The notes: generated from the letters alone by a model not told the origin. Shown: positions 2,731 to 33,991, counted from the stretch's first letter. The stretch is DNA of 64,000 nucleotides from Candidatus Eiseniibacteriota bacterium (GCA_016712505.1 JADJQY010000009.1:234690-298689), one strand, 5' to 3'. A program made the numbers and translations.

Positions 2731-3468
2731 ATGACGCGTTCCAGAACTACACTGGCTGCTCTCTTCGCCGGGCTGTTCCTCACTGGTGTCCCCGGCGACT
2801 GTTGGGGCGATATCGAAATCGGGTCACTTTCGCACACCGGGCTGACGGCGACGTCTGATTCCCGCGGCGCCACTTGTGGCTCGCTTCTCTGGCATTCCGA
2901 CGGCACCTGGGAGAACGGGATCGCCTACTCCGCAACCTGGCCGCGGTACTACGGGGCATTTGCCGAGTGCTACTCGGGGACCGGCGAGGTGTGCTCGGTT
3001 CGCGCGGCCTTTGCTTGCTACTGGGAGTTCAGAGGATCGAAGGCGGACATCTTGGTCTGGGGGGACGCGGGGGGGATCCCCGGGGAAGTGCTGTGCCTCG
3101 TTCCGGACTGGCAGCCCGACTTCGTACCGCAGTGGCCGGAGGTGCGCGTGTTCGACATCCCGGTGACCGGCTGCTGTGTGGACGGGCCATTCTGGGTCGG
3201 CTTCTGGGGCAACTGGATAGGCGGGGGGCCAGAGGACTTCTACATCCTGATCGACAATAGTCCCGGGAGCACCGGCTGTTCGTACACGAACCCCCCGCCG
3301 GAGTGGGGATTTCCCGAGGGCTGGCAACCTGCGACGATCCTGGGCGTCCCGCTGAAGAATCTCGGGCTGGGGGTGGAGCTGAGAGAGTGCCTGCCGGTGG
3401 GCGCCGAACGGTCGACCTGGGGACGGGTGAAGAGTCTGTACCGAGGCTCGGGCGCAGTGCCTCGCTAG
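2731..3468 (+). CDS. Secreted Cys/Trp-rich hypothetical protein ending in conserved 'TWGxVKxLYR' C-terminal tail
   Basis: Strong RBS AAGAGGAGGA 5 nt upstream of ATG; signal peptide MTRSRTTLAALFAGLFLTGVPG; C-terminus ERSTWGRVKSLYRG shared with three other secreted proteins in window. Confidence 0.7.
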   Translation: MTRSRTTLAALFAGLFLTGVPGDCWGDIEIGSLSHTGLTATSDSRGATCGSLLWHSDGTWENGIAYSATWPRYYGAFAECYSGTGEVCSVRAAFACYWEFRGSKADILVWGDAGGIPGEVLCLVPDWQPDFVPQWPEVRVFDIPVTGCCVDGPFWVGFWGNWIGGGPEDFYILIDNSPGSTGCSYTNPPPEWGFPEGWQPATILGVPLKNLGLGVELRECLPVGAERSTWGRVKSLYRGSGAVPR

Positions 3469-3502
3469 AGGGGTCGTCCGCGGATCGCATCGTGTCTGGC
3501 GA

Positions 3503-3540
3503 AAGGGCTGCCGTCGGGGCGGCCCTTTCCGTTGCCCCCG
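3503..3540 (+). terminator. Rho-independent terminator downstream of 2731..3468
   Basis: 9-bp stem agggctgcc/ggcggccct (one mismatch), 5-nt loop, followed by tttccgtt. Confidence 0.45.
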
Positions 3541-3857
3541 GATTGTCTCCGGTAGGGCGCAGGGGCAGCAACCGGCTTGATCCGGGGCCACGGCGGCGAC
3601 CGGGCGCGAGGCCTCCCCGATGGCAATTGGGCCCGAAGGTACGGGCCCGGGAGTGCCGATAATGACGGCTGCGCCGGGTCCGCAGTGGACCGGCGCGGGC
3701 GCTTGTGCCAAACTTCACGAGTTCCGGGGCGACTTCAGAATTCGGCCTCCTCTCCGCAGCGGATCCGGAACCCAACCTGCCGGGAAGGCCATCCTGCGGG
3801 ACGCCACTGCTCGGGACGAGCCGCGCGCGAACCTGCGAGATAGAAAAGGAGCGATCA

Positions 3858-5351: not shown

Positions 5352-5396
5352 CCGCCGCGCGGCTCTGCCGCGTGGCTGCCGCGCTGTGGTCTACTC

Positions 5397-5987: not shown

Positions 5988-6241
5988 CCCACCCGACTGC
6001 GGTGCGGCAGGCGGTTCCATCGAGGGGAAAAGTGCCTTGACTTCGAGAAGTGCGGGGAAGACCATAGTCTGCGTCAACGGTTCCTGACGCGGTCGACACT
6101 GCTGCAGACGTGGGAACGATGACTGGAGCCGGAGATCTGAGATTCACACCTGACCAGACCTTCGGATCGCCCCCACTGCGTCGTCAGTTGGCCGGTCGCG
6201 ATCAGTTCAATTCCGAACGTGAGCCACGTCGGAGGCCGAGA

Positions 6242-9216
<2,975 letters not shown>

Positions 9217-9220
<4 letters not shown>

Positions 9221-10647
9221 GCGTGGGCAGAGCGACTTGCCTGAGGGTGTTCCCCCGGCACCTGCGTGACACCGCAACGCTCGTGCCGGCCGTGTGGGCC
9301 GTTCGGGTTGCCAGCGTTTCCTTTCTGTCCTTGATGCTCCCCCCGATGCCCGCGTCCGCTGGCCGCCTGCTGGTGCCCGAGCAGTATCCCTCCATCGGTA
9401 GCGCGGTTGCCGCCCTCGGTGAGAGGGACACCGTCTCGATCGCTCCGGGGATCTATTCCGGAGAGGGGAATCGGAACCTTCTGATCGGGGCTATCGATGT
9501 GGCCCTCATCGCCCGCGATGGCCCCGGCACGGTCGAGATCGACTGCGAGGGCTCGTCCGGACCGAGTCGTCAGTTCCTCGCGTACTTCGGCAACGTCGGC
9601 TTTGGGCTCGTTCTGCGCGATCTCACGATCCGGAACTCCTGGCATCAGTACGGAGCGATCCGTCTGCAGGGCGGCGGCTCGGTTTCGATCATCGGGTGCG
9701 ACTTTCGGGACAATCGGGGAAGCACGGACGTGGGGTGCTTGTGGAGCCGTGGACCGTTCGATCTGGAGATCGTCGGCTGTACCTTCGAGAACAACCGCGG
9801 GGGGACGCATCGGGGGGCGGCTGGGGCGATTGTCAGCGGGGCCAGCACCGTGCGGGTGGAGCAGTGCTCCGTGCGAGCGAATCGAGGTGGGTTCATTCTT
9901 GCCTCCGAGTGCGAACTGCTCGAGGTCATCGAATCGACGATTGTGGACAATGACTTCGGAGTCTGGGAATCCGGCACGATGGTCGGGTTTCACTTCACCG
10001 ACATGACTGCGATCCGCGGGTCGCTCATTGCGTCCAACTCGGACGAGGCTGTGGGTGGCCTAGGCAACTGCCGGATAGAGGACAGCACGATAGCGGACAA
10101 CGCCGGAGGTGGGGTGGCGTTGATCGGGGATCTCACCGTTCGAGGCTCGGTGCTGGGGGGAAACTGCACGCCTGAGGGTTCCGGCTGGAGGGATCTCAAG
10201 TTGCTGTCAGGATCCTGTGAGATCGAGTGCAGCGTGATCGACTCAACCGGCATGGAGATCGACGGCGAGTTGGTCGTCGGTGAGGGGGTCGTGTTCGCGG
10301 CACCGAGCTACTGCGAGGCGGCGTGCGGGTCGTTCTTGCCCGCGGGCGACTACCGTCTGCAGGTGGGTAGCCCGGGGGCGAATGGCTGCAGCACGTGCGG
10401 CGATTTCGTGGGGTACACGGACGAGACGTGTGGTGGGGACAGCGTCGGGGCGTGTTGTCTGGGGAGCGATTGTGAGTTGTTGTCGGAGTCATGCTGCGCC
10501 TCGGCTGGGGGCGAGTTCGTAGGAAGTGGATCCGCCTGTAGTCCGTTTCTATGCGACCAACCAGTGCCGGTCGAACGCCGTACCTGGGGTGGGGTGAAAT
10601 CCAGGTGGCGGGGGCTTCCGCCCGGCGAGCGCTTGATCGAGGAGTAG
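9217..10647 (+). CDS. Secreted right-handed parallel beta-helix repeat protein with 'TWGxVKxxWR' C-terminal tail
   Basis: ATGA overlap with stop of upstream gene; repeated 'NNRGG/ANRGG' beta-helix turns; C-terminus 'VERRTWGGVKSRWRG'. Confidence 0.6.
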
Positions 10648-11790: not shown

Positions 11791-12219
11791 CGGGGTGGAT
11801 CCGATTGCGGCGGCAGGTTGATGACGTGAGTTGCGGTGCACTGGCCGTTGGGTCTTGGCGCGGCGATGCTGCGCCGCGGCGGATCCGGGTCGCCGGGGCG
11901 ATGCGCCGCCGTCGCGGAGGCGCGTCGATCGTGGAAACGCGGGCGCGGTCCAGCTGTGGCCGCAACGAATTCCGAATCTTCGTGCGAAAAACTGGTTGAC
12001 CACTTTTCCAACGACGCGATGCGTCCTCGCGCAATCGGCTTCGTATCCGCCTCGTGCCGCGATCGCGTGACCGCTCGCGCCCGAAAGCGCGCCACTCCTC
12101 GTTTCGAAACTCATTCGCCGATGTTCGTTGCGTGCGCGCGTGGAGAAGCCTGCGCGACGGGGGGCGCTATCGTTGCGTTGATGAGCAGGAAGTCTTCTTC
12201 ACGAACACGGAGGTGCCGC

Positions 12220-13710
12220 ATGCCGCTCGCACGTACTGAAGCCGAGAATCTCGAGATCGATCGCCCGACCGTCGCGCCAGATTCAGCGTCCTCTCTTGGC
12301 GCGACTCCACTCGCGCGCACACGACGCGTGGCGGAGCCCTCGGCCCTTTCAGACGCGGAACTGCTTCGATCGGTCGCCCGATGGGCCGCGCTCGAGCGCC
12401 GCACGACGGCGGAACTGCTCCGGCATCTGGCCGAGCTCGATCTACGACATTTGTACCTCGGCGCCGGCTGCGCCTCGACCTTTGCCTACTGCACCGAGCG
12501 GCTCCGCATGTCGGAGTCGGCCGCCTACCATCGCATCACCGCCGCGAGGCTCGGACGTCGCTTTCCCGAGCTGCTGGAGCGACTCGAGGCCTCCGACCTT
12601 CACCTGAGCGGCATCTGTCTGCTCGCGCCGGTGTTGACCGAGGCGAACCTCGCCGACTGGGTCGCGCGCGCGCGCGGTCAGTCGAAGCGCGCGATTGAGC
12701 GGATGCTGCAACGGGAACGAGAGACGGAGAGCGCGAAGGCGCACCTGCCGCGGGTCGACCCGGCCGGAGCGCTCTTCCGCGCGGCGATCGCGGGAGAGGG
12801 ACGCTCGGCCCCGATGGGTGGGCCCAAGGTGGACACGCAGAACGCAGAAGCGGCTCCGGCAGATCGGCTCGCAGTCGGGGACGCGGCTGCTGCCAGCTTC
12901 GTCCCGCGGGAGATCCGGGCTTCGGTCGTGCCTGGCCAGGAACATCGCACGCCCTCGGCGCGACAGGACCGAATCACGGTGACCGTCGATGCGGAGATGC
13001 ATGAGCTGATCGATCAGGCGCGGGACCTGGTGCGACACCGCAATCCCAGCGGGGATCTCGCGACCTTGCTGCGGCTCGCGCTGCGGACGCTGATCGCAGC
13101 GACCGAGCGGCGTCGGTTCGGGCTGCGGCCGAAGACGGAGAACGCGGGTGGCGTTGCTGCGGGTCCTGCCGAGGTGACTGTGGTGGCGACTGCTGCGGTG
13201 GCCTCCAGGGTGCCCCCGGAGGTGACTGCTGAGGTCGCTGCCGTGACGGCGCCGGCTACGGCCGCGAACCCTGCCTATCCGCGACGCAGGGCGCCGCGGC
13301 CGCAAGCACGGAACGCGGGCATCCGATCACGCTACATCCCGGCGGCCGTTCGCCGGGCGGTCTGGCAGCGCGATCGAGGGCGTTGCGCCTTCCGGTCACC
13401 CGATGGGCACCAGTGCGATGCCCGAGGGTTCCTGCAGTTCCATCACCTCGTTCCGTTCGCCCAGGGAGGCGCGCACACCGTGGAGAACCTCGCACTGCGC
13501 TGCGGACCCCACAATCGCTACGAGGCGAAAACGGACCTGGGCGGGATCGCCGTCCGGGTCGCGCGGGGCGACCGTGGGTGCATCCCGCACGGCGATCCGA
13601 CCGGCGAAAGCGATCGCCGAGTGGTGCTCGGCGTCCATACGATTGCGCTCTCCGCTCAACTCCCCGGGGGAGTTGGAGCCCAGGGAAGTCCGGGGAAAGG
13701 ACGAACGTGA
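12220..13710 (+). CDS. DUF222 domain + HNH endonuclease protein (REP13E12-family-like), paralog 1
   Basis: N-terminal 'ELLRHLAELDLRHLYLGAGCASTFAYCTERLRMSESAAYHRITAAR' (DUF222) and C-terminal 'CAFRSPDGHQCDARGFLQFHHLVPFAQGGAHTVENLALRCGPHNRYEA' HNH motif; GGAGG RBS 6 nt upstream of ATG. Confidence 0.8.
   Translation: MPLARTEAENLEIDRPTVAPDSASSLGATPLARTRRVAEPSALSDAELLRSVARWAALERRTTAELLRHLAELDLRHLYLGAGCASTFAYCTERLRMSESAAYHRITAARLGRRFPELLERLEASDLHLSGICLLAPVLTEANLADWVARARGQSKRAIERMLQRERETESAKAHLPRVDPAGALFRAAIAGEGRSAPMGGPKVDTQNAEAAPADRLAVGDAAAASFVPREIRASVVPGQEHRTPSARQDRITVTVDAEMHELIDQARDLVRHRNPSGDLATLLRLALRTLIAATERRRFGLRPKTENAGGVAAGPAEVTVVATAAVASRVPPEVTAEVAAVTAPATAANPAYPRRRAPRPQARNAGIRSRYIPAAVRRAVWQRDRGRCAFRSPDGHQCDARGFLQFHHLVPFAQGGAHTVENLALRCGPHNRYEAKTDLGGIAVRVARGDRGCIPHGDPTGESDRRVVLGVHTIALSAQLPGGVGAQGSPGKGRT
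13657..13700 (+). repeat. Palindromic repeat copy G (caactcccc-g-ggggagttg, 19-nt near-perfect palindrome) at 3' end of HNH gene 1
   Basis: Read directly; followed by 'gagcccagggaagt' resembling intron 5' region. Confidence 0.7.
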
Positions 13711-15130: not shown

Positions 15131-15850
15131 CTACGGCCGGTACAGCCGCTTCACCGCGCCCCAGCTTCCGCGCTCGGTCGCGACCGGCTGATCGACGTAC
15201 TCGACCGAGAGATTGTCCACGCCCACGTTCCATTGCTGGAAGATGGCAAAGTTGCACGGCTCGAGCCAGTGAATCTCCACCCGATCGACGCTGCTCACCA
15301 CGTCGTTCCAGGTGACTCCGGGACGAAACGCGGCGCAGTCACCGACCCACCCGCCGCTCCAGCCGGCCGGGACCGGATCGCTCGACAGACTGGGCACATC
15401 GACCTCGTAGTGCTGCCACCCCGCGCCGACCAGCGGCACGTTGGGTCCGATGAAGTAGGCGAAATCGTCGTCATCGACGTCGTTCGGCGTGCCATGGGTG
15501 TTGCGCAGCAGCAGGACGACGTTGAAGCCGGAACCGTCGCCGAAGTCCATGTGATGGTTGATCAGGTCGAACGAGATCCGGCTCACTCCCGAGAGGGTGT
15601 AGTCCCCCTTGAACGGGTTGTCGTTCGCCCAGGAACTCTGCACAGCGGGATCGAAGGTGTCGTACTGCGGCTGGTGCAACCACCACCCCGGATTCCCGCC
15701 GCTCGACTCGAGCAGGTCGCCTCCAGGGATGAAGGTCCATCCGGCCTGGTTGGCGCCGCCTTCGAAGTCGTCGACGAAGGTGACGGCATGCGCGGAGGTG
15801 GCGAGGTAGGCGGCGAGAGAAACGGTGATCCATGCGAGCTGCGATTTCAT
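15131..15850 (-). CDS. Secreted hypothetical protein ending in 'SWGAVKRLYRP' tail
   Basis: GGAGG RBS 5 nt upstream of ATG; signal peptide MKSQLAWITVSLAAYLATSAHA; C-terminal motif shared with 3 other proteins. Confidence 0.65.
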   Translation of the reverse strand: MKSQLAWITVSLAAYLATSAHAVTFVDDFEGGANQAGWTFIPGGDLLESSGGNPGWWLHQPQYDTFDPAVQSSWANDNPFKGDYTLSGVSRISFDLINHHMDFGDGSGFNVVLLLRNTHGTPNDVDDDDFAYFIGPNVPLVGAGWQHYEVDVPSLSSDPVPAGWSGGWVGDCAAFRPGVTWNDVVSSVDRVEIHWLEPCNFAIFQQWNVGVDNLSVEYVDQPVATERGSWGAVKRLYRP

Positions 15851-18847: not shown

Positions 18848-20407
18848 CTAGCGCATCTCCGCCAGCGACTCGACCATCTTCCGGCTGCCCTGGAGCGCCA
18901 CCCGTCGGGTGTAGAACTCGAGTCCGCGAAGTCCGCCCAGTTCTTCGCCCCCGCCAGCGCGGCCCGGCCCGCCGTGGATCGACTGCGGAAGCACCAGTCC
19001 GGAGCCCATCGCCTGCTCGGCCATCTTGGAGCTGCCGAGGTAGAGGCGACCGGTCCAGGCCCCGCCTGCTTCGACGAAGCGCGAGACCCAGGCGTCGTCG
19101 TCGCTGTAGACCGAGGTGACGAGTGTCCCCTGCCCAAGGGCGACGAGCGCCGCCGCGTCCGCGGCCGAATCATCGTGGGTCATGATGGTGGCGACCGGTC
19201 CGAACACCTCATGATTGTGCACCGCGGTCGCGGCGCGCGCCTCCGGGGCATGGAGCAGCGTCGGGGCGAGGAAGAAGCCGGTGCCTGCGGGATTGCCGAC
19301 GCCATCGATGCGATGGCCACTCCCGAGCACCAGCCGCGCCTGGGCTTGCAGCGTGGTGATGCCGGCCAGCCCGTCCTCGAGCTGGCGCGCGGAGGTCAGC
19401 GGTCCCATGGTGACGCTGGGGTCGGCAGGATTCCCGGTGACCACACGGCCGAGCCGGTCGGCTAGCTCGGACAGCACCGTGTCGAGCATCGAAGCGGGCA
19501 CGAAGACACGCCGGACCGCGGTGCACTTCTGCCCGGTCTTCTGGGTGATCTCGCGCTCGACGTCTTTCAAGAAGAGGTTCCAGGTGTCGGAACCGACCGC
19601 GACATCAGGCCCAAGAACCGCGGCATTCAGGCTGTCCGCCTCGATGTTCACCCGAGTGCTGGAGGCGAGCAGGTTCTCGGTGCGGCGGAGCTTCAGCGCA
19701 GTTGCGGCCGAACCGGTGAACGCGAGTGCGTCCTGTGGTCCGAGGTGCGAGAGGAGATCTCCCGCCTCGCCGCAGATGAACTGGAGCACCCCATCGGGGA
19801 GGATGTTTGCCTCGACCAGGATCTCGACGCACCGCGCCGTGACCATGGCCGTGGAACTGGCCGGCTTCGAGATCGCGGGCACGCCGGCGAGAAGCGAGCA
19901 GGCCGCCTTCTCGGCGAAGCCCCAGGCGGGGAAGTTGAACGCGTTGATCTGGATCGCGGCGCCGAGAAGGGGAACGCGCATGTGCCGCCCGTAGAAGCGC
20001 TCCGTCCTTCCGAGGGCCAGCCCTTCACCGTCGACCAGCACGCGGCGGTTCCCGAGTTCCTTCCCCAGATTCGCATAGAAGGCGAGGGTCGCCGTCGCCC
20101 CGTCGAGATCGAACTTCGCGTCCTTCCTGGTCGTCCCGGTCGTCTGGAGCGAAAGCTCGATCAGCGCGTCGCGATCGGCGTAGAGCGCCTTCGACATCGA
20201 CTGGAGGAGGTCACCGCGCTGGGCGAAGGTCAGCTGCCGAAGCGTCGGTCCCCCCTTCGATCGAGCATGCTCGAGGGTCGCGCGAAAGTCGATCCCGACG
20301 CTCGACACCCGTGCCACCACCTGCTCGCTGCACGGATCGTGCAGCTCGGTGAACCCGGTCGTGGCCTCATGCCAGTGCCCGCAGACATGCGATCTCAGCG
20401 TCTTCAT
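18848..20407 (-). CDS. paaZ: PaaZ-type aldehyde dehydrogenase domain protein (oxepin-CoA hydrolase/3-oxo-5,6-dehydrosuberyl-CoA semialdehyde dehydrogenase family, ALDH domain only)
   Basis: Blocks 'IQINAFNFPAWGFAEKAACSLLAGVPAISKPASSTA', 'QKCTAVRRVFVP', 'IHGGPGRAGGGEELGGLRGLEFY' align with E. coli PaaZ N-terminal domain; no MaoC domain. Confidence 0.8.
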   Translation of the reverse strand: MKTLRSHVCGHWHEATTGFTELHDPCSEQVVARVSSVGIDFRATLEHARSKGGPTLRQLTFAQRGDLLQSMSKALYADRDALIELSLQTTGTTRKDAKFDLDGATATLAFYANLGKELGNRRVLVDGEGLALGRTERFYGRHMRVPLLGAAIQINAFNFPAWGFAEKAACSLLAGVPAISKPASSTAMVTARCVEILVEANILPDGVLQFICGEAGDLLSHLGPQDALAFTGSAATALKLRRTENLLASSTRVNIEADSLNAAVLGPDVAVGSDTWNLFLKDVEREITQKTGQKCTAVRRVFVPASMLDTVLSELADRLGRVVTGNPADPSVTMGPLTSARQLEDGLAGITTLQAQARLVLGSGHRIDGVGNPAGTGFFLAPTLLHAPEARAATAVHNHEVFGPVATIMTHDDSAADAAALVALGQGTLVTSVYSDDDAWVSRFVEAGGAWTGRLYLGSSKMAEQAMGSGLVLPQSIHGGPGRAGGGEELGGLRGLEFYTRRVALQGSRKMVESLAEMR

Positions 20408-20566: not shown

Positions 20567-22506
20567 TGTGCGCCAGGCAAAGCCTGGGAAGGGAGGATGG
20601 TGAGCCTCTGCGGCTCACTTGAAACTCATCGATAGCGACCCGGTGGGTCCGAGTCCCACCCGGCAAAGCTGGCCAGCAGCCGGAACCGAGTGTTGCGTGG
20701 TCCCGAGGCAACTCGGACTGCGAAGCGTACACAGGGAACGAGCAGGCCGTGTGATCGAGCCTCGAAATCGGGCACTTGCGGGAGCCGGCGCTCTACTGTC
20801 AAGCGACGGCAGCAGGTGGACGGTGATTGGCCTTCCGCCCACCTCCCGCCGGGGTCAAAGAGCAGGGCGTGCTCGTGCAAGGGTCGTCCAGGAACCTGGG
20901 AGATCCCGCCTCCTCCTCGCCTCGGGTGAGGCGCCAACGCCGAGGAAACGAAGGCTCTGGTGTGCGGAGTCGGGAAGTCAGAGTGCCTGCGTAGTACCGG
21001 AGAAAGCGGGGAACCGGACCCTTCCGGGACCCGCTGGAGGGAAGGCGGGCGCCGGATCATGGAACCGATGGAAGGAAAGACGCATGGGAACTCTGAGTCC
21101 CCGCAACGTCTCAACGACACTCCAACGGATAGCGGACATGGCCCGGGAATCTCCGGACCGAGTCTTCACCAGCATCCACCATGCGGTGGATCTCGAGCTT
21201 CTGCGGGAAGCGTACCGGCGCACGCGAAAGGACGGGGCAGTAGGGGTAGACGGGCAAGGGTCGGAAACGTTTGCGGCGAACTTGGAGCAGAACCTCCGGT
21301 CCCTCCGCGATCGGCTCAAGCTCGGCACCTACCATGCACCGCCGGTGCGCCGAGTGCACATCCCAAAGGGAGACGGGGCGAAGACGCGCCCGATCGGCAT
21401 CCCGACCTTCGAGGACAAGGTACTTCAAAGGGCGGTGACCATGGTGTTGGAAGCGATCTACGAGCAGGACTTCAAGGACTGCTCCTATGGCTTCCGCCCC
21501 GAACGGTCAGCTCATCAGGCACTGGAAGAGATCTTTCAACGCATGATGAAGATGCACGGCGGGTGGGTGATCGAACTCGACATCGAGAAGTTCTTCGACC
21601 GACTCGACCACCGGAAGCTGCGGGAATTTCTGGACCAAAGGGTGCGTGACGGTGTGCTACGCCGCGCTCTCGACAAGTGGTTGAAAGCGGGGGTTCTGGA
21701 AGAGGAACGGCTGAGTCGCCCTCGGGAAGGAACCCCACAGGGAGGCGTGATCTCTCCGCTTCTCGCCAACGTCTACCTTCATGAAGTGCTCGACCGATGG
21801 TTCCTGGAGCAGATCGTGCCCAGGCTGCGAGGCAACTCCTTCCTGGTTCGGTACGCCGATGATGCCATCCTGGTCTTCTCCTCGGAGGCGGACGCTCGCC
21901 GGGTGCTCGCGGTTCTAGCCCAGCGGTTCAATCGCTTCGGCCTGACCCTGCATCCGGAGAAGACCCGACTGGTTCGGTTCCTCTGTCCACCCTACTTGCG
22001 AAAGGAACGACTCCTGCCTCGCGATGGTGGACCGGAGAGCTTCGACTTCCTCGGCTTCACCCACTACTGGGCGAAGTCGCAGCGAGGCCGGTGGTTGGTG
22101 AAGAAGAAGACCGCGAGTGAGCGTCTTCGGCAGGCCCTCAAGCGGGTCTCTGCCTGGTGCCGACGCGACCGACACCAGAAAGTCGCCTGGCAACACGGTC
22201 GACTGGTTCGAAAGATCCTCGGTCACTTTGCCTACTATGGCGTCACCGGGAACGATCCGCAGCTCTCGCGCTTTCGTGACCGGGTGACCCGCATCTGGCA
22301 ACAGTGGCTGAGTCGCCGATCCCAATCGACCCCCATGCCGTGGGACCGCTTTCACCGCCTGCTCGATCGGTACCCTCTACCGATGCCGCGGATCGTACAC
22401 AGGGTGGGTCACGCAGCCAACCCATGACCGAGGAGCCGGATGCGCGAATCGCGCACGTCCGGATCTGTGGGGGGGGGGCGCCCGCGGGGGTGGCCCCTAT
22501 CCCGAT
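20566..22506 (+). mobile_element. Group II intron (~1.9 kb) with ORF in domain IV
   Basis: 5' end GTGTGCG; 34-nt domain V 'GAGCCGGAUGCGCGAAUCGCGCACGUCCGGAUCU' (AGC triad, AC bulge) at ~22433..22466; DVI-like hairpin with bulged A and ...gat 3' end; boundaries +/- few nt. Confidence 0.7.
21084..22427 (+). CDS. Group II intron-encoded reverse transcriptase/maturase (RT + X domains, no HNH/En domain)
   Basis: RT motifs 'RPIGIPTFEDKVLQ', 'FLVRYADDAILVF' (YADD), 'FLGFTHYW'; RBS GAAGGAAAG upstream of ATG. Confidence 0.9.
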   Translation: MGTLSPRNVSTTLQRIADMARESPDRVFTSIHHAVDLELLREAYRRTRKDGAVGVDGQGSETFAANLEQNLRSLRDRLKLGTYHAPPVRRVHIPKGDGAKTRPIGIPTFEDKVLQRAVTMVLEAIYEQDFKDCSYGFRPERSAHQALEEIFQRMMKMHGGWVIELDIEKFFDRLDHRKLREFLDQRVRDGVLRRALDKWLKAGVLEEERLSRPREGTPQGGVISPLLANVYLHEVLDRWFLEQIVPRLRGNSFLVRYADDAILVFSSEADARRVLAVLAQRFNRFGLTLHPEKTRLVRFLCPPYLRKERLLPRDGGPESFDFLGFTHYWAKSQRGRWLVKKKTASERLRQALKRVSAWCRRDRHQKVAWQHGRLVRKILGHFAYYGVTGNDPQLSRFRDRVTRIWQQWLSRRSQSTPMPWDRFHRLLDRYPLPMPRIVHRVGHAANP

Positions 22507-22523: not shown

Positions 22524-23789
22524 CTAGTCCCCCCTCCCGTACTCCGGCACCGACCCGCGGGCGTGGGAGTACTTCGGTGCGTTCACTTCCTGAACGCGTC
22601 GCAAGTACTCCTGCTCGGAGATCTCGGTGCGCCAGTAGCCGGCCAGCCTGGCGGCGTTGATCCCGCCGAAGAAGAGGACGACGACCAGGGCGGCGAACAC
22701 CGTTGGGCGGACCGCGCGCCGCCAGGGGGCGGGCGTTTCGACCGCGAGGGCCGAAGGGACGGGGCAGGCGGCGACACAGGAGAGGCAGCCGAAGCACTCA
22801 TCGGACGACACGCGGGTCGCACGATCGACCGCGAGATTCGACGGACACGCCTTGGCGCAGAGACCGCAGTCGATGCAGTTCTTCGGCGTCCGGGTGATCT
22901 TTAGCGGTGAGAGCAGCGAGGTCACGCCAAGCAGTGCGCCGTAGGGGCAAAGATACCGGCACCAGAAGTAGGGCACGACGATCGAGAGGCCGATCAGCAC
23001 GACCAGCGTCTTCAAGGCAAGGGTCGAGATCTGAGCGAAGAAGAGCATCATCTTGACGTCGGCCACCTTGTTGTACGGCGAGCCGAGGAAGAGCGCCACG
23101 TCGCGCGGGGTCATCTTGACGAAGATGGCGTAGACGAAGAAGGCGAGGAGCAGATACTTGATGCTCCTGAGCGGAAGATCGGCCCAGCGAGGAAGTCGCA
23201 CCCGCGGTGCGCGCATCCGCCGGAGCAGCGGCGCGAACAGGTTCCGACCGATGGCGGCCAGCGACTCGGAGAGGGTGCCGATCGGGCAGAGCCAGGAGCA
23301 GAACGCTTTCTTGAGCAAGAGGCCGGTGGCGACCACCAGGCCGAGAATCACGAAGCCGGCGGGATGGACGCGACTCACCTCGCCGGTCTCGAGCCAATGG
23401 CGGAAGGTGAGGAGGGCGGAGATGGGAAGGAACCCTTCGATGCCGGGGGGACGCGTTCCTTCCAGGCGCCCGGCTTGCAGCGCGAAGACCCAGCGCGTGA
23501 ATTGCCACCCGATCCAGACGATCACGGCGAGGGAGGCGAGCTGAACCCCGAGGCGGAGGTTCTCGATCCGCGCGCGGCGCGCGCGGTACGCAGGTCCCTT
23601 CAGCACCAGCGGCTTCAACGCGGCGCGCAGGGCAGCGCGGTCCGTGCCACGTTCGTCGTTGGGGTCGCTTGCGCGGACGACCGCGCGGTCGTCCGCGCCG
23701 TCGTTCGCGGGATTGCCCGGGGAGAGATCGTCTTGGCCTTCGGCCGGCGCGGTGATCGTGGCTTCGGAGAGAAGAGGATTCGTCGACAT
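22524..23789 (-). CDS. Membrane-bound 4Fe-4S polyferredoxin (NapH/MauN-like)
   Basis: Multiple TM helices with CxxC motifs ('FCSWLCPIG', 'WCRYLCPYG') and two ferredoxin motifs 'CIDCGLCAKACP', 'CFGCLSCVAACP'; start set at internal ATG (MSTNPLL). Confidence 0.55.
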   Translation of the reverse strand: MSTNPLLSEATITAPAEGQDDLSPGNPANDGADDRAVVRASDPNDERGTDRAALRAALKPLVLKGPAYRARRARIENLRLGVQLASLAVIVWIGWQFTRWVFALQAGRLEGTRPPGIEGFLPISALLTFRHWLETGEVSRVHPAGFVILGLVVATGLLLKKAFCSWLCPIGTLSESLAAIGRNLFAPLLRRMRAPRVRLPRWADLPLRSIKYLLLAFFVYAIFVKMTPRDVALFLGSPYNKVADVKMMLFFAQISTLALKTLVVLIGLSIVVPYFWCRYLCPYGALLGVTSLLSPLKITRTPKNCIDCGLCAKACPSNLAVDRATRVSSDECFGCLSCVAACPVPSALAVETPAPWRRAVRPTVFAALVVVLFFGGINAARLAGYWRTEISEQEYLRRVQEVNAPKYSHARGSVPEYGRGD

Positions 23790-23956
23790 CTCGATTCCCT
23801 TTCCGAGTTCATAAGAAGACATTCGGACCAAAAGATCCTAATAGCAGTATCGGATCTGATGCCACGGTGGTCAATCAGAATATGGAGCTTATGCGGGCGA
23901 GCTGCTCAATCCAGCTAACGCAAAGTCTTACATATTGTTGACGAATCGAGGTTCGG

Positions 23957-25160: not shown

Positions 25161-25790
25161 CTAGTGGTAGATGTCGACCGTGACCGTCCCCACGATGTTG
25201 AGGTCGACCCGGAGTTCCCAGTCGAAGCTGGTCGAGGCCCCGGTCGGTTGCGAGACCCCGGCCGCGGCGTACTTCAGCGTGATGTCCGAATCGACGCCCG
25301 CCTTGAGGTCGGCGAGCAGATCGTCGAGCGCGTCGTTCAGCACCGAGACTCCGGCGGGGGCGAGCGAGACTTCGGTCCAGTCGGTCGCGGTGTCGACGTC
25401 GAGTTCGAAGTCGGACACGAGCGAGGCGAGCGCGCCGCCGTCCCGCCCGACCGCGACCGTGCCGTCGGCGATGTGACGGCCAGGGTTGGGGTCTGGGACG
25501 GTGCAGCGGACATAGACGGCGGCCAGACTCAGATCGGTCAGGTCGGCGACGTCCACCCCGTTGTCGTCCAGGATCTCACGAATGTCGATGTCCTGGCCGA
25601 GGTTGAACTCCTCTTCCTGGGCGTAGGTATTGATGATGCCGCGGGCCTGGAACTCCTGAACGGCGGAGCCGACGACCGCGAGCTCCACGGTCCGCTCTTC
25701 CGCCTCCGGAATGAGCGGACAGCCGCTGCCGGCGAGCAGCATCCAGGCGCACGCGAGTGCCGCAGATGAAGCAAAGATACGGGCACGCAT
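25161..25790 (-). CDS. Hypothetical lipoprotein
   Basis: Signal peptide ending ...LLAGSGC (lipobox-like); acidic; no family recognised. Confidence 0.45.
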   Translation of the reverse strand: MRARIFASSAALACAWMLLAGSGCPLIPEAEERTVELAVVGSAVQEFQARGIINTYAQEEEFNLGQDIDIREILDDNGVDVADLTDLSLAAVYVRCTVPDPNPGRHIADGTVAVGRDGGALASLVSDFELDVDTATDWTEVSLAPAGVSVLNDALDDLLADLKAGVDSDITLKYAAAGVSQPTGASTSFDWELRVDLNIVGTVTVDIYH

Positions 25791-25803: not shown

Positions 25804-26748
25804 TCAGTTTCCGAAGCTCAGGCCGAGCGCGACGGTGTTGGCCGCGGCGAGGTTGAACTCGATGTGGGCCTTCACGACCGGCAGGTTGGCGAGCAACCCG
25901 ACCGTTCCGTGCAGGTTGGTTTCCTTCTCGAAGTCGACCGAGATCTCGTCCACCGTCTCGATCCCGTCGGTCAACTCGTAGACCAGGTCCATCTCGAACG
26001 AGTCGTAGCCGACGCCGACGTAGGGCTGGAGCAGGCCGAAGTGCTTGCTCCCGGTGACGTCGAGGTGCAGCGCCTTGGTTTCGAGCAGATGGTCGCCCAG
26101 GTTGAAGGTCTGGTAGAACCCACCCACCGCGAGGTCGACCGGAAGATCCGGGATGTACTGGGTGATCGAGTGCTGTGCGCCGAGGCCGAGGAGTTCCAGG
26201 TCGCCCAGGTCCTCGCTCTCGTCGCCGAGCTTGACCGCGATCCAGCGGGCCGTGATCCGGGTGCCGAGCAGGTTGCCGATCGTGAGCTGCGGGACCGCGA
26301 TGCTGAAGTCGTCGATGTCGAACCCGCCGGAGAAGTAGTGCTGCGTGCCCGCCTCCCCGGGACGCAGTACGGCTTCCGTATCGCCGATGACCGTCGGGAC
26401 GATCGCCTCGTCCGCGTCACCTGGGCCATAGACCGCAGTGTAGGTCCGGTCGGCATCGTCGAACTGGGCCGACATGAGCTGAACCCCGAACTTGATGTTG
26501 AGGCCCTCCTTCGGCACGTCACCGGTCTGGAAGATCGACGTGTTGAGTGTGCTCGAGAGCGCGGTCGGGAGCGGGGAGAGATACCCCTCGGCGTTCTTGC
26601 CGGTGAGCCCGCTCACCCCGGCCGAGAGCTGTGCCTGTGAGACCTGCGTGAGTGTGAGCGTTGCGACCAGCGCCAACGCCGCCCTGACCAGGATTCCGGT
26701 CAGAGCGGAGCGGCGGGCGCCTCCTTGACGACAGTTCATGGGAGCCAT
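25804..26748 (-). CDS. Putative outer-membrane beta-barrel/porin-like protein
   Basis: RBS GGAGAAAGG directly upstream of ATG; signal peptide ...TQVSQA; alternating amphipathic strands, aromatic near C-terminus (...LSFGN). Confidence 0.4.
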   Translation of the reverse strand: MAPMNCRQGGARRSALTGILVRAALALVATLTLTQVSQAQLSAGVSGLTGKNAEGYLSPLPTALSSTLNTSIFQTGDVPKEGLNIKFGVQLMSAQFDDADRTYTAVYGPGDADEAIVPTVIGDTEAVLRPGEAGTQHYFSGGFDIDDFSIAVPQLTIGNLLGTRITARWIAVKLGDESEDLGDLELLGLGAQHSITQYIPDLPVDLAVGGFYQTFNLGDHLLETKALHLDVTGSKHFGLLQPYVGVGYDSFEMDLVYELTDGIETVDEISVDFEKETNLHGTVGLLANLPVVKAHIEFNLAAANTVALGLSFGN

Positions 26749-26787
26749 CCTTTCTCCGGGACAACAGGCGAACACTGATCGCGCAGA

Positions 26788-30520: not shown

Positions 30521-30866
30521 TGAGGTGCGAGGGGTGAGAAGCTAGAGGGGAAAGGTGAGGCGCAAGGCGACGGGCGCAAGACGCGAGGCTTGCCGCGAAG
30601 TCCGTCGAGACGGCCGCAGAAAGTGAGTGTCGTGGCGATTTTGAGTTGACGGAGTCTGCGGATCAGCGTTCCGGACATTGCCGTGCGACCGCAGGACTGG
30701 TCGGTGATGCCGTCGGGTGGGACCACACGGGAGATCGCGTTGCTCTGGTCGCTCGCTGGTGCAACGGACCCAGTTCGTCGTGCCTTGGGCAACCCACAGG
30801 CTCGAAAGGAGCGGGCCTATCATTCCTGAAGCACGGTAGGTGAAGGGCAGCACGGGGAGGTTGCGC

Positions 30867-32354
30867 ATGATCGGAGGAAGAATGGAGCGATCGGAGCTGG
30901 ATTCGAGCGTTGATTCCCTGGTCGCGAATGGCCGGGAGTTGTCGTCACGCGGAGAGGTGGAACGCTTGGCCGATCACGACCTGATCCGTGCGGTCATCGC
31001 GCTTGCCGGGCGGGCGCGAGCGGTTACCGCCGAGTTGCTGGTGCACCTGGGCGAGCTGGATGCTCGTCGCCTGCACCTTGCCGCCGGGTGCGCATCGACC
31101 TTTGCGTACTGTATCGAAGTTCTCCGGATGTCTGAACCTGCCGCGTACCATCGCATCACCGCCGCCCGCGCTGCTCGGAAGTTCCCCGCGCTGGTGCGCC
31201 ATCTCCGGTCCGGGGAACTCCATCTGAGCGGCGTCTGCTTGCTCGCTCCTGTCCTGACCGAGGCGAACGTCGATCACTGGATCGCGCGGGCGCGCGGACA
31301 ATCGAAGCGCGCCCTCGAGCGACTCCTGGGTGCTTCGCAGGCTGCCCGCATGTCGGCCGCCCACGACACCGCCCGTGACGCCACGGCCAGAAAGGCGTCC
31401 GAAGAGGGGGCGACCGGCTCGGACTCCTCGGCCCTCATTGCTGGGGTGGAGGCGACAGCGGGCGACCGCGGGGAGCGAGCTGAGCAGCAGGTTCGACCTG
31501 GCCAAGTCGGACCAGAGCCAGCTCGCGCGCGCGACGCTCGCGATCGGAGCGACTGGGACGACGGAGGTAACGGAGCTGGGTCGCGAGAGCAGGCCGCCGC
31601 GGTGAAGGTCGGTGCCGGCTCCTCGGCTGTGGCGCCGCTACGCGCGCTGCGTGACCTGCGCGTGCCGGTAGATCCTGAGTTCCTCGATCTGCTCGATGCC
31701 GCACGCGACCTCGCTCGGCATCGCAATCCCTCGGGTGACCTGACGACCTTGCTGCGCCTCGCCCTTCAGGCGCTGATCCAGCAGACGGAGTCACGGCGGT
31801 GCGGCCGCGCGGTGACGGCGACGAAAGGCGAGCCACCGAGCGAAACGCCGAGGCAAGAAGAGGCTTCCGCCCGTGGAGATTCGGTCGCTGCGGTGAGTGT
31901 CCAGCGTGATGTTGCCGGATCACCGCCTCGCGCCGCGACGGAACCCTCCGGTATCACTCGGGCTTGTCCTCAGGTTCACCCGTCGCGGTCCCGCTACATC
32001 CCTGTTGCCGTCCGACGCGAAGTATGGCGACGCGACGGCGCTCGCTGCGCCTTCGTCGCGGAGGACGGCCGACGCTGCACGTCGCGAGCCTTCCTCGAGT
32101 TTCATCACCTGGTGCCGTTCGCTCTCCGCGGCGACCACTCCGTTCCGAACCTCGCCCTCCGCTGCCAACCGCACAACAAGTACGAAGCGGAACTCGCGTT
32201 CGACCTGGGTGCACAGCGGACGCGCGAACTTCCCCCGGGGGGAGTGTGCGGCGGGCAAAGCCCGGGAAGTTGGGATGTCGAGCCCCCAAGGCTCGCTTGT
32301 GGCGCAGCGACGGCGACTCGAGACCCCGCGGCGGCGCTCCTGGCTTTCGCTTGA
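30867..32354 (+). CDS. DUF222 domain + HNH endonuclease protein, paralog 2
   Basis: Same N- and C-terminal blocks as paralog 1 ('HLGELDARRLHLAAGCASTFAYCIEVLRMSEPAAYHRITAAR', 'CAFVAEDGRRCTSRAFLEFHHLVPFALRGDHSVPNLALRCQPHNKYEA'); 3' end of ORF reads through palindrome/intron-like repeat B. Confidence 0.8.
   Translation: MIGGRMERSELDSSVDSLVANGRELSSRGEVERLADHDLIRAVIALAGRARAVTAELLVHLGELDARRLHLAAGCASTFAYCIEVLRMSEPAAYHRITAARAARKFPALVRHLRSGELHLSGVCLLAPVLTEANVDHWIARARGQSKRALERLLGASQAARMSAAHDTARDATARKASEEGATGSDSSALIAGVEATAGDRGERAEQQVRPGQVGPEPARARDARDRSDWDDGGNGAGSREQAAAVKVGAGSSAVAPLRALRDLRVPVDPEFLDLLDAARDLARHRNPSGDLTTLLRLALQALIQQTESRRCGRAVTATKGEPPSETPRQEEASARGDSVAAVSVQRDVAGSPPRAATEPSGITRACPQVHPSRSRYIPVAVRREVWRRDGARCAFVAEDGRRCTSRAFLEFHHLVPFALRGDHSVPNLALRCQPHNKYEAELAFDLGAQRTRELPPGGVCGGQSPGSWDVEPPRLACGAATATRDPAAALLAFA
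32226..32300 (+). repeat. Palindromic repeat copy B followed by ~75 nt closely matching the group II intron 5' end
   Basis: 'gtgtgcggcgggcaaagcccgggaagttgggatgtcgagcc...ggctcgcttg' vs intron 'gtgtgcgccaggcaaagcctgggaagggaggatggtgagcc...ggctcacttg'. Confidence 0.7.
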
Positions 32355-32630
32355 CGTGCTCATGGCCCCGGAGGGATCGTTCGCCAGGTCGGGCGAGGTC
32401 TTGCGGTTCCATCCGCGCCCTGATGCGCACCGAAGGACCCTCGGTTCTCGACTCCGGAATCCACGAACCAGCGATGACGTGCCGTTGCTGCTCGCGGACC
32501 GTATCGCCACCGGGAATTGCACGACTCGAAGGCGCCCGTAGGCCGGCGCTGAGCCGGTCAGACGAGGGATCTACTTCGCCCGATTGGAGGGAGGCGGGAC
32601 GGCGGGCACCAGGCGCCTCGTGATTCTCCG

Positions 32631-33991
32631 ATGACGACTCGAATTCGAACCATACAGCCCAGGTTGCCCTTGAGGTGTCTCTGGCGGCTCGGCGTCCGAT
32701 GGCTCCTCCTCGCCGCCAGCCTGGCCACGGGCACCGTCCATGCCCGAACCCTCGTCGTGGAGGGCAACCCCACCGGAGCCCGAGATGTCGTGAAGGCAGT
32801 GCTGGCGGAGGCACAAGATGGCGACACCATCCAGATCAACGCCGGGACCTACTACGAGAACCTCGACATCACCCAGCGCAGTCTGACGATTCTCGGCGCT
32901 GGCGCTTCGGTCACGACGCTCTACGGGGAGGACGGCGTCACCATCCTCCCCGGAGCCGTCATCCGAAATGCCGACATGACAGCGCGCGACCTGGTGCTCG
33001 AAGGGATCACCTTCGCCGAGGGAACATCGTGGCGTGGACTTGTCGAAGGCGACGGTGTCGGTGGTAACGTCTGTTGGTCCAACGAGGAATGCTCGGGGTC
33101 GTTCGCGATCCAGAAACTGCGTCCTCGAGCGTGGCACGGCGGCCTACGGGGGCGGCCTGTATGTCCACGGTCTGCGAAATGTCGTGGTCGAGTCCTGCGA
33201 GTTCCGGAATAACCACGCATCGCGCAACGGGGGGAATGTCTTTCTCGCTGGGTGCCTGTCGCGGAGGGGCGAAATCGTATTCGCGGGGAACACCGATCGA
33301 GATCGGTGGCATCTCAGGTCGAGATGCCGGTGGCTTCTTCGCAAGGGATGCAGACCGGATCGAATTCTCCGGGAATAGAGTCTCCTCGACTCCGAACCCG
33401 GAACCATGTCGCGGCATCATCCTCCTAGACGTGAAGGAGATCCGGATCGACGGCAACCTCGTCGAGGACGATGGCGGCGACTGCGCGTCCTACATTACGG
33501 CGGAGAACTTCACCCACGGAGCCGTAAAGGTCGAGTTCACGAACAACACCGTTCGGAGGTCAGGGGCAGGCGTTCCTCGGGAGCCGGTTCTCATGGGGAG
33601 TTCTCGCGATCTCATCGTCACCGGAAACACGGTCTGGGGGACAAAGCTTGTCTGTAGCACAGGGTTCGGAACTGGCATGGTTACGCACAATGTGGTCAGC
33701 GGAGGCCTGCTCCACGCGGACTTCACCGGCACGGGGGAAGCGTCCTGCAACGTGACCTGGCCGGATCCGATCCTGGTGACGGGGCAACGTCCGGTGATGT
33801 CGGACAACGTCGTGGCCGATCCGTTGTTCTGCGATCCGGAAGGAGGTGACCTCCGGGTGGCGGCAAGTAGTCCATGCGTGACGAATCCGGCCTGCGCGCG
33901 GATCGGGGCGTACACGGTAGGTTGTGGGGACACCCCGGTGCTGAAGCAGAGCTGGGGAGCGATCAAGGCGCGCTGGGGCGTCGCGCGATAG
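32631..33991 (+). pseudogene. Secreted beta-helix protein gene (class with 'SWGAIKARW' tail) disrupted by two +1 frameshifts
   Basis: Protein continues across three frames (ORFs 32631.., 33034.., 33074..33991); shifts map to a cc run (~33110) and a gggg run (~33285); N-terminal signal peptide and C-terminal tail both present. Confidence 0.6.

What the first reader, a model, noticed from the sequence alone, without database searches (positions are those of the whole stretch)
2731..33991. Unrecognised C-terminal tail P-V-x-x-[EK]-[RQ]-x-[ST]-W-G-x-[VI]-K-x-x-[YW]-[RG] shared by four secreted proteins
Four proteins (2731..3468, 9217..10647, 15131..15850(-), 32631..33991) have clear signal peptides and very different mature regions (Cys/Trp-rich, beta-helix, unknown). 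All four terminate within about 10 residues of the same ~18-aa motif (ERSTWGRVKSLYRG, ERRTWGGVKSRWRG, ERGSWGAVKRLYRP, KQSWGAIKARWGV). Three other secreted proteins in the window use a different, longer T9SS-type CTD. The short tail has no TM segment, so it is not a PEP-CTERM, LPXTG or GlyGly-CTERM type signal. I could not match it to any sorting signal I know. It may be a new anchoring, secretion or partner-docking tag.
Basis: seen in the sequence. Interest (0 to 1): 0.7.

Follow-up and report, generated by a model that had tools for sequence, protein, structure and literature searches.

The report
New short tail tag on secreted proteins
Four exported proteins in this Eisenbacteria genome end in the same ~17-residue peptide (…P-V-x-V-E-x-[ST]-[ST]-W-G-x-[IV]-K-x-L-Y-R), which recurs on hundreds of unrelated exported proteins of uncultured FCB-group bacteria, matches no catalogued signal, and sits where related proteins carry a type IX secretion domain, so it is probably an undescribed targeting or docking tag.

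Summary
The motif is real. [ST]WGx[VI]K occurs four times in the six-frame translation (0.03 expected), each 10-20 codons before a stop. One of the four "genes" (32631..33991) is frame-disrupted. The window belongs to a Candidatus Eisenbacteria MAG.

The tail is a widespread module. Positions the pattern did not force were also conserved. A 24-position tail HMM found 581 cluster representatives (E<=1e-3) among 1.84 billion, 125 of the top 150 within 12 residues of the C-terminus, on at least 44 unrelated cargo families.

No Pfam, NCBIfam, PDB or literature match was found. AlphaFold leaves the tail detached from the folded domain.

Orthologues of one cargo domain carry, at the same junction, this tail, a T9SS type A CTD, PEP-CTERM or a dockerin-like module. 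Tail and CTD never co-occur on one protein. Some lipoproteins carry 2-5 tandem copies or a copy at each end.

Best reading: a modular peptide tag read by a conserved envelope partner for surface targeting or retention. The partner is unknown and T9SS is the leading candidate. The mechanism is inferred, not shown.

The parts
2731..3468 (+). P1: 245-aa exported Cys/Trp-rich protein of unknown family. The tail motif PVGAERSTWGRVKSLYR is at 3394..3444, followed by GSGAVPR and the stop.
   Evidence: All 7 homologues found carry the tail. In the AF2 model the core is a moderate-confidence beta-sandwich and residues 222-245 have pLDDT below 50.
9217..10647 (+). P2: 476-aa right-handed beta-helix protein with a Cys-rich module. 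The tail motif PVPVERRTWGGVKSRWR is at 10561..10611, followed by GLPPGERLIEE and the stop.
   Evidence: PF13229, 1.2e-15. The same protein, called from M44, is in NCBI as a Candidatus Eisenbacteria protein (P0138).
15131..15850 (-). P3: 239-aa exported CBM/lectin-like jelly-roll protein. The tail motif PVATERGSWGAVKRLYR is at 15137..15187, followed by P and the stop.
   Evidence: AF2 gives a core with pLDDT above 90, a linker at 219-229 and a tail helix at 230-237 with pLDDT about 52. The fold resembles CBMs and reelin repeats. Orthologues swap the tail for a T9SS CTD, PEP-CTERM or a dockerin-like module.
33074..33991 (+). P4, C-terminal fragment: the tail-bearing part of a frame-disrupted beta-helix gene. 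The motif DTPVLKQSWGAIKARWG is at 33929..33979, followed by VAR and the stop.
   Evidence: tblastn with tail-bearing beta-helix proteins aligns only from about 33323 in this frame. P0177 is a 99.5%-identical fragment.
32631..33212 (+). P4, N-terminal fragment: signal peptide plus the start of the beta-helix, in a different frame from the tail-bearing part.
   Evidence: (weak beta_helix_1/NosD hits).
8963..9220 (+). Comparator: T9SS type A-like CTD at the end of the S8 subtilase 6110..9220. This is the alternative C-terminal module in the same genome.
   Evidence: TIGR04183 17.7 bits, below cut-off. N-terminal domain homologues in other MAGs carry the tail instead.
16102..16359 (-). Comparator: T9SS type A CTD of the beta-propeller protein 16102..18558.
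   Evidence: TIGR04183 27.8 bits, cut-off 23.
39321..39578 (+). Comparator: T9SS type A / FlgD-Ig CTD of the beta-helix protein 37617..39578.
   Evidence: PF13860, 4e-13; TIGR04183 34.5 bits.

Best explanation
The tail is a self-contained, roughly 17-residue peptide module with consensus (C-G)-P-[TV]-P-V-E-x-[TS]-[ST]-W-G-x-[IV]-K-[AS]-[LM]-[YF]-R. It usually ends exactly at the C-terminus. It is attached by a short Pro/Thr/Val linker to the end of Sec-exported proteins and lipoproteins in Candidatus Eisenbacteria and allied FCB-group phyla. It most likely works as a linear recognition tag. It is unstructured on its own and folds (probably as a short helix) onto a conserved envelope partner, which delivers or holds the protein at the cell surface. 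In domain architecture it occupies the slot that the T9SS type A CTD occupies in the same genomes, and that PEP-CTERM or dockerin modules occupy in other phyla. The reader protein is unknown. A T9SS-associated outer-membrane component (a PorV-like shuttle or a PorP/SprF-like anchor) is the leading candidate. Shown: the motif's reality, its conservation, its positional bias, its modularity, its lineage range, its absence from curated libraries, and its mutual exclusivity and interchangeability with known sorting modules. Inferred: that it is read by a protein partner, that the destination is the cell surface, and any link to T9SS.
For: (1) The motif is not chance: 4 observed against 0.03 expected in the window.
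(2) It is widespread. Essentially every hit is the end of a long ORF. Positions the pattern did not constrain are conserved: -1 is T/S in 93%, -7 is V/T, -6 is P, -5 is V/T, -4 is E/R.
(3) The tail-only HMM found 581 representatives at E<=1e-3 in 1.84e9 proteins. In the top 150, 125 have the W within 12 residues of the end, although the HMM does not model termini. They fall into at least 44 BLAST-unrelated cargo families.
(4) About 60 of 73 full-length hits have a signal peptide or a lipobox.
(5) The module is swapped in orthologues. After the last core strand (VGxDNxxIEY…PTxVE) the protein continues either with the tail, with a FlgD/T9SS CTD (P0023, P0025, P0033, P0036, P0043), with PEP-CTERM (Planctomycetota) or with a dockerin-like module. 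A second case is the N-terminal domain of the window's S8 protease.
(6) Tail and CTD are mutually exclusive: 0 of 50 CTD ORFs in the same loci carry a tail.
(7) AF2 puts the tail outside the fold for two unrelated cargos, with pLDDT about 52 and below 50 and a short helix.
(8) Conservation is near-invariant: W and K 100%, G 96-98%, plus a small-xxx-small pair (G at +1, A/S at +5 in 88%). This fits tight packing against a protein better than loose lipid binding.
(9) Lipoproteins with 2-5 tandem copies, a copy at each end, or a copy after each duplicated domain show an autonomous, avidity-compatible binding module.
(10) Named hits are almost all FCB-group MAGs: about 35 Eisenbacteria, 9 labelled Fibrobacteraceae or Fibrobacter, 5 Latescibacterota, 4 Gemmatimonadota, plus Krumholzibacteria. 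Other high-GC phyla are far more numerous in the collection. This points to a lineage-specific reader.
Against: No partner has been identified. No conserved neighbour gene was found in 120 loci or in the window; recurrent neighbours were only generic families. The cell-surface destination is inferred only from the module swaps and the cargo types (beta-helix, CBM-like, subtilase). The AF2 helix is low-confidence, and hydrophobic-moment analysis does not separate helix from strand. The strong preference for ending exactly at YR-COOH (136/150, partly forced by the search pattern; 74/150 in the unforced HMM set) would suit a true C-terminal export or processing signal as well. All carriers are uncultured MAGs, so there is no experimental anchor of any kind.
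Confidence: 0.45

Rival explanations
1. The tail is a minimal T9SS export signal. It would be the functional equivalent of only the last strand or strands (motifs D/E) of a type A CTD, and would be required for crossing the outer membrane through the T9SS translocon rather than for later retention.
For: It occupies the same C-terminal slot as the type A CTD and is mutually exclusive with it in the same genomes. Its range is FCB-restricted, like T9SS. CTDs in these same genomes end in [RK]-PhiPhiPhiPhi-[RK]-COOH, and the tail ends in K-[AS]-[LM]-Y-R-COOH, so both have a basic residue 4-5 from the end, hydrophobic -1/-2 and a basic terminus. [quoted passage not shown]
Against: There is no HMM similarity to TIGR04183, PF18962 or PF13860. 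The register of the basic and hydrophobic residues differs from the CTD end, and the invariant W-G has no CTD counterpart. About 20% of carriers are lipoproteins. Copies occur just after the signal peptide, internally and in tandem. In this window all four tails are followed by 1-12 extra residues. The tail lacks the Ig-like fold.
Confidence: 0.25
2. The tail is a non-covalent binding motif for an envelope polymer (LPS or O-antigen, exopolysaccharide or peptidoglycan). Its aromatic and basic residues (W, Y, K, R) would contact sugars or phosphates, and tandem copies would give avidity, as with choline-binding or LysM-type repeats.
For: There are tandem arrays of 2-5 copies with about 19-residue spacing, and copies at both ends of small lipoproteins. 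The composition (W, Y/F, K, R) suits binding of sugars and anionic groups. The tail is flexible and detached.
Against: Near-invariance of W-G and K, and the requirement for small residues at +1 and +5 across phyla, is stricter than usual for low-affinity polymer-binding peptides. A 9-10 residue core is very short for an autonomous carbohydrate-binding unit. Most proteins have a single copy (127/150).
Confidence: 0.13
3. The tail is a covalent attachment site. The invariant Lys would be the acceptor or nucleophile linked to peptidoglycan or a surface glycan by a transpeptidase, analogous to the C-terminal ...YRK of Braun's lipoprotein (own knowledge) or to the Lys of Gram-positive pilin motifs.
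For: Lys is 100% conserved in a flexible, exposed segment ending in ...K-x-L-Y-R. Lipoproteins with an N-terminal lipid anchor plus C-terminal tails would be Lpp-like tethers.
Against: The Lys is not terminal. The cargo families and their T9SS, PEP-CTERM or dockerin orthologues suggest an extracellular rather than periplasmic location. No transpeptidase gene is associated in the neighbourhoods.
Confidence: 0.07
4. The tail is an in-plane amphipathic membrane anchor that partitions into a membrane leaflet without a protein partner, like the C-terminal helices of PBP5 or MinD (own knowledge).
For: AF2 predicts a short helix. As a helix, W, I/V, L and Y cluster on one side with K and R flanking (inference). 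The helical hydrophobic moment is 0.45-0.66 for some copies.
Against: Only about 9 residues (2.5 turns). The hydrophobic moment is low or strand-like for other copies (0.17-0.26). Sequence invariance is far higher than lipid-binding helices need. An invariant Gly at helix position 2 is unfavourable.
Confidence: 0.05
5. The tail is not a signal at all. It would be a shared structural end of related domains, a DNA repeat, or an annotation or translation artefact.
For: None found. It was considered only because short motifs can recur by common descent.
Against: At least 44 unrelated cargo families carry it. The tail lies outside the fold. Nucleotide sequences are not conserved. It is replaced by other sorting modules in orthologues.
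Confidence: 0.02

Closest known systems
T9SS type A C-terminal domain (TIGR04183 / PF18962, FlgD-Ig-like PF13860)
   Same: It sits at the C-terminus of Sec-exported proteins in FCB-group bacteria. It is appended to many unrelated cargos. It is present in the same genomes and is interchangeable with the tail in orthologues. Both end in hydrophobic residues plus a terminal basic residue with a Lys/Arg a few residues upstream. The literature reports that the last 22 residues of one CTD suffice for secretion (PMC10202324).
   Different: The CTD is a 70-100-aa seven-strand Ig-like domain with motifs A-E, whereas the tail is about 17 residues with no fold. There is no profile similarity. The tail has an invariant W-G. 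The tail also occurs on lipoproteins, in tandem, and at N-termini.
T9SS type B CTD with PorP/SprF-like anchor proteins
   Same: Both are uncleaved C-terminal elements proposed to hold cargo on the surface by binding an outer-membrane protein. This is the kind of mechanism favoured here.
   Different: Type B CTDs are about 100 residues or more (PF13585/TIGR04131), and their cognate PorP/SprF genes are clustered with the cargo gene. No conserved neighbour accompanies tail genes.
PEP-CTERM/exosortase, LPXTG/sortase and GlyGly-CTERM/rhombosortase tripartite signals
   Same: Each is a short C-terminal sorting signal shared by many unrelated exported proteins of one lineage. PEP-CTERM replaces the tail in Planctomycetota orthologues of P3.
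   Different: Those signals consist of a signature motif, a transmembrane helix and a basic cluster. The tail has no hydrophobic segment, and no candidate sorting enzyme is known.
Dockerin-cohesin docking modules
   Same: Both are modular C-terminal tags on diverse secreted enzymes and binding proteins that dock to a partner. A dockerin-like module replaces the tail in some P3 orthologues.
   Different: A dockerin is a roughly 70-aa duplicated Ca-binding fold. The tail is a linear peptide, and no cohesin-like receptor has been identified.
Secretin S-domain / pilotin interaction (own knowledge)
   Same: Both are short, intrinsically disordered extreme C-terminal peptides that fold into a helix on binding a partner, which determines envelope localisation.
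   Different: The S-domain is restricted to secretins and does not share this sequence. The comparison is an analogy of mechanism only.

Membership tests
T9SS type A CTD (TIGR04183/PF18962/PF13860) | Match to the curated domain models | tested here: not met
   No hit for the window tails or for canonical tails, even at E<=10. The window's real CTDs do hit.
T9SS type A CTD (TIGR04183/PF18962/PF13860) | A 70-100-aa seven-strand Ig-like beta-sandwich | tested here: not met
   The tail is about 17 aa. AF2 shows a linker plus a short low-confidence helix or coil outside the fold.
T9SS type A CTD (TIGR04183/PF18962/PF13860) | C-terminal position on Sec-exported cargo of FCB bacteria | tested here: met
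T9SS type A CTD (TIGR04183/PF18962/PF13860) | Motif E-like terminus (conserved Lys, hydrophobic residues, basic end) | tested here: inconclusive
   The CTD end is [RK](-5)-PhiPhiPhiPhi-[RK](0). The tail end is K(-4)-[AS]-[LM]-[YF]-R(0). They are similar in kind but differ in register.
T9SS type A CTD (TIGR04183/PF18962/PF13860) | Secretion depends on the T9SS, and PorU cleaves the CTD | not testable with these tools
   Requires genetics or proteomics. No T9SS core gene lies in the window.
PEP-CTERM / LPXTG / GlyGly-CTERM type tripartite sorting signals | Signature motif followed by a hydrophobic transmembrane helix and a basic cluster | tested here: not met
   No hydrophobic stretch follows the motif, and most tails stop at YR. 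No NCBIfam sorting-signal model hits.
Outer-membrane protein beta-signal | C-terminal aromatic residue (usually Phe) ending an amphipathic beta-strand of a beta-barrel | tested here: not met
   The terminal residue is Arg in 71-94% of tails. The cargos are soluble beta-sandwich or beta-helix folds.
Dockerin | Duplicated Ca-binding loop-helix module of about 70 aa | tested here: not met
   The sequence and length are incompatible. Dockerin-like ends (DTDGDG…) are a distinct alternative in orthologues.
Lpp-type peptidoglycan attachment | C-terminal Lys linked to mDAP by an L,D-transpeptidase | tested here: not met
   The conserved Lys is at -4 and the terminus is Arg. The chemistry itself is not testable here.

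The most novel reading that the evidence does not exclude
The tail is the address label of a so-far unknown envelope sorting or display system of uncultured FCB phyla (Eisenbacteria, Latescibacterota, Krumholzibacteria, some Gemmatimonadota and Fibrobacterota). In this reading a dedicated receptor or enzyme, distinct from the T9SS, reads a 9-10-residue W-G-x-[IV]-K-x-L-Y-R core. It then secretes, docks or covalently fixes a large share of each organism's exported proteins. Multivalent lipoproteins carrying tandem tails could serve as adaptors.
Probability: 0.3. Interest if true: 0.85.

Novelty: new variant of a known kind. Interest (0 to 1): 0.68.

Why it matters
C-terminal sorting signals such as LPXTG, PEP-CTERM and the T9SS CTD have each led to the discovery of a dedicated envelope machine, and they are routinely used to predict secretomes. 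This tail marks a large, so-far unannotated class of exported proteins. It was found on at least 581 clusters at 50% identity and at least 44 cargo families, including beta-helix proteins, CBM-like modules, proteases and small lipoproteins. The carriers are entire candidate phyla that are common in soil, groundwater and wastewater and have no cultured members.

A curated HMM would immediately improve annotation of these 'hypothetical proteins' and give a handle for phylogenetic profiling to find the partner. If the tail proves to be a minimal T9SS signal, it would bear on the open question of what part of a CTD the T9SS actually reads. If it is a docking peptide, a 17-residue portable surface-display tag would also be of practical use.

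Tried and rejected
- A tail-only alignment in the word-indexed protein search found nothing, because the query was too short for the index.
- Exact look-ups of P1 and P3 failed. One of them used a wrongly trimmed minus-strand reference. Only the M44 version of P2 is on record.
- I searched for a conserved neighbour (a candidate sortase, peptidase or receptor) by clustering all ORFs of 120 loci plus the window. Only generic families recurred: PD40 propellers, Ser/Thr kinases, ABC ATPases, aminotransferases and sensor kinases. The window itself has no T9SS core, sortase-like or PDZ-protease gene near the tail genes.
- A PDB profile search gave one insignificant hit.
- Literature searches for the motif string, and for Eisenbacteria with secretion or T9SS, found nothing relevant.
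- A DNA repeat or mobile element was rejected.
- 'N-terminal edge of the T9SS CTD' was rejected: no CTD protein carries the motif.
- Hydrophobic-moment analysis to decide helix versus strand was inconclusive.
- A proper per-genome count of tail proteins could not be obtained, because no whole genome could be fetched.

Full report
**Observation**

Translating the four stated ORFs shows the motif at each C-terminus. A six-frame regular-expression scan finds exactly four [ST]WGx[VI]K sites in the window. They lie at nt 3418, 10585 and 33953 (+) and at 15163 (-), each 10-20 codons before a stop. Residue frequencies predict 0.03 such sites in the whole six-frame translation. Shuffles give 0.05 sites, and none at the end of a long ORF.

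Aligning the four DNA segments shows little nucleotide identity beyond what the conserved amino acids impose. This is protein-level conservation, not a DNA repeat.

One correction is needed. 32631..33991 is not a single ORF. The signal-peptide and first beta-helix part (32631..33212) and the tail-bearing part (33074..33991, with homology from about 33323) are in different frames. A 99.5%-identical database entry exists only as a 186-aa fragment (P0177). The gene is therefore disrupted, or the frameshift is shared by the assemblies.

The three comparator proteins do end in T9SS type A-like CTDs. Two score above the TIGR04183 cut-off and one below it.

**Source organism**

P2, P3 and P1 have 95-100% identical counterparts annotated as Candidatus Eisenbacteria bacterium proteins (MBK8232191/96, MCC7143793/97), with the same gene order. 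The window otherwise carries housekeeping genes: futalosine-pathway menaquinone genes, AdoHcy hydrolase, RND efflux, a sigma-54 activator and T6SS tssK/tssL. It has no T9SS core, sortase-like or tail-specific protease gene.

**The tail beyond the window**

In these loci 154 tails sit at the ends of long ORFs, including about 35 the pattern had not seeded.
- *Unforced positions.* Positions that the pattern did not constrain are conserved: T/S at -1 (93%), V/T at -7 and -5, P at -6, E/R at -4. In this set 136 of 150 end exactly at YR-COOH.
- *Taxonomy.* Named records are about 35 Eisenbacteria, 9 labelled Fibrobacteraceae or Fibrobacter, 5 Latescibacterota, 4 Gemmatimonadota, and one each of Krumholzibacteriia and Effluviviaceae. 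Three outliers sit on tiny contigs or are false positives. All are MAGs.
- *Tail-only HMM.* A 24-position HMM built only from window and tails was run against 1.84 billion representatives. It found 581 proteins at E<=1e-3. In the top 150 the W lies 9-12 residues from the C-terminus in 125 cases and within 25 in 147, although an HMM knows nothing about termini.
- *Cargo diversity.* After removing the tail, 98 sufficiently long hits fall into at least 44 BLAST-unrelated families. The largest are right-handed beta-helix proteins (23) and small NTF2-like lipoproteins (18).
- *Export signals.* About 60 of 73 full-length hits have an N-terminal signal peptide or a lipobox.

**Is it known?**

- Neither the window tails nor canonical tails hit any NCBIfam (June 2026) or Pfam model, even at E<=10.
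- A profile search of all PDB sequences gave one insignificant hit.
- Full-text searches for the motif, or for Eisenbacteria with secretion or T9SS, returned nothing relevant.
- The tail has no hydrophobic segment, so it is not a PEP-CTERM, LPXTG or GlyGly-CTERM type signal.
- It ends in Arg, so it is not an OMP beta-signal.

**Anatomy and behaviour**

AlphaFold2 models P3 with a deep alignment as a high-confidence jelly-roll (pLDDT above 90, residues 23-218). Its nearest solved folds are CBMs, reelin repeats and lectins. An unstructured linker follows (219-229), then an 8-residue helix at pLDDT about 52. In P1 the last 24 residues are below pLDDT 50. The tail is therefore not part of the cargo fold.

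Homologues of the P3 domain show module swapping at one junction. After the last core strand and a short …P-T-x-V-E linker, the protein continues in one of four ways:
- with [ST][ST]WGx[IV]KxLYR-COOH, in about 40 proteins including named Eisenbacteria;
- with a FlgD/T9SS CTD;
- with VPEP…RRRR, a PEP-CTERM signal, in named Planctomycetota and Phycisphaerales;
- with a dockerin-like DTDGDG… module.

The N-terminal domain of the window's CTD-bearing S8 protease likewise has tail-bearing homologues. With a crude CTD HMM, 50 ORFs in 39 of the same loci carry a CTD, and none carries both a CTD and a tail.

The exceptions to strict C-terminal position are informative:
- NTF2-like lipoproteins with a CGDD-type lipobox carry 2-5 tandem tails spaced about 19 residues apart.
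- Others carry one copy right after the signal peptide plus one at the end.
- Others carry one copy after each of two duplicated domains.

In this window all four tails are followed by 1-12 extra residues. The module therefore works autonomously and does not strictly need a free carboxylate.

**Mechanism**

W and K are invariant, G is 96-98%, the aromatic position is Y/F and the terminal R is 71-94%. Position +5 is A or S in 88% of cases, so G(+1)…[A/S](+5) forms a small-xxx-small pair.

Almost every position is constrained, the segment is intrinsically flexible, and multivalent versions exist. Together these fit a peptide that folds into the groove of a conserved protein partner. They fit loose lipid or polymer binding less well.

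The swaps with CTD, PEP-CTERM and dockerin modules, and the cargo types, point to the cell surface as the destination. The restriction to the FCB group points to a lineage-specific reader. T9SS-associated outer-membrane proteins are the obvious candidates.

A stricter version, that the tail is itself a minimal T9SS export signal, is kept as the main rival. CTDs in the same genomes end in [RK]-PhiPhiPhiPhi-[RK]-COOH, which is similar in kind to K-[AS]-[LM]-Y-R-COOH but in a different register. A review reports that the last 22 residues of the HBP35 CTD suffice to secrete GFP and that the motif E lysines are required (PMC10202324). Against this rival are the lipoprotein carriers, the N-terminal and tandem copies, and the absence of any profile similarity.

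Polymer binding, Lys-mediated covalent attachment and an in-plane membrane helix are less likely rivals. Hydrophobic-moment analysis was inconclusive. No neighbour gene gives a clue to the partner.

**Verdict**

The tail is an uncatalogued, widespread, modular C-terminal tag of exported proteins in uncultured FCB phyla. It is architecturally equivalent to the T9SS CTD and mutually exclusive with it. What reads it, and whether it secretes, anchors or docks, is inferred and not shown. I rate it a new variant of a known kind (C-terminal sorting or docking signals), with interest about 0.68.

Noticed in passing
window 20619..22427 (+): A group II intron-type reverse transcriptase ORF (PF00078, 8e-38) lies between the aldehyde dehydrogenase gene (18848..20407 -) and the Fer4 gene (22524..23831 -). 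In the syntenic relative L125 these two genes are adjacent without it, so this looks like a recent mobile insertion.
   Followed up: partly
window 11836..13710 (+) and 51901..53802 (+): Two paralogous ORFs of about 625 aa (50% identical over 400 aa), each with a weak HNH endonuclease motif near the C-terminus. Their function is unknown.
   Followed up: partly
window 45442..48987 (-): An AcrB-type RND transporter is split into two adjacent ORFs (profile positions 1-488 and 505-1020). They are separated by a TAA stop, with an ATG two codons later. The split gene lies next to a complete AcrB gene (42306..45485) and a membrane-fusion protein gene (48827..50413).
   Followed up: partly
window 61294..63581 (+): Type VI secretion genes tssK (VasE) and tssL (DotU) lie at the window edge of an Eisenbacteria genome that also has T9SS-type cargo.
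   Followed up: no
window 32631..33991 (+): A beta-helix gene with at least one frame disruption between about 33000 and 33320. The relative's database entry is also only a fragment (P0177). It is either a pseudogene or a shared assembly error.
   Followed up: partly
P0121, P0126, P0184, P0124, P0141, P0144, P0213, P0247; L056 1646..2908: A family of small NTF2-like lipoproteins (lipobox followed by acidic residues) carries 2-5 tandem tails, tails at both ends, or one tail after each duplicated domain. In L056, seven tail-bearing paralogues lie in a row.
   Followed up: partly
tail family at large: A Cys lies 9-11 residues upstream of the W in about half of all tails (44% at -10 among the HMM hits), often as C-G-P-T-P-V-E. 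In the window this holds for P1, P2 and P4. It may close the last disulfide of the cargo or be part of the signal.
   Followed up: no
window 9217..10647; L024, L071: A Cys-rich module of about 40 aa (…GACCxxxxxCxxxxxxxCCxxxGGxxxGxGxxCxPxxC…) directly precedes the tail in P2 and in unrelated tail proteins. It was not identified further.
   Followed up: no
window 25804..26775 (-) and 25161..25790 (-): A DUF6588 protein (9e-34) lies next to a 209-aa ORF with no family match. Both sit inside the menaquinone gene cluster and were not examined further.
   Followed up: no
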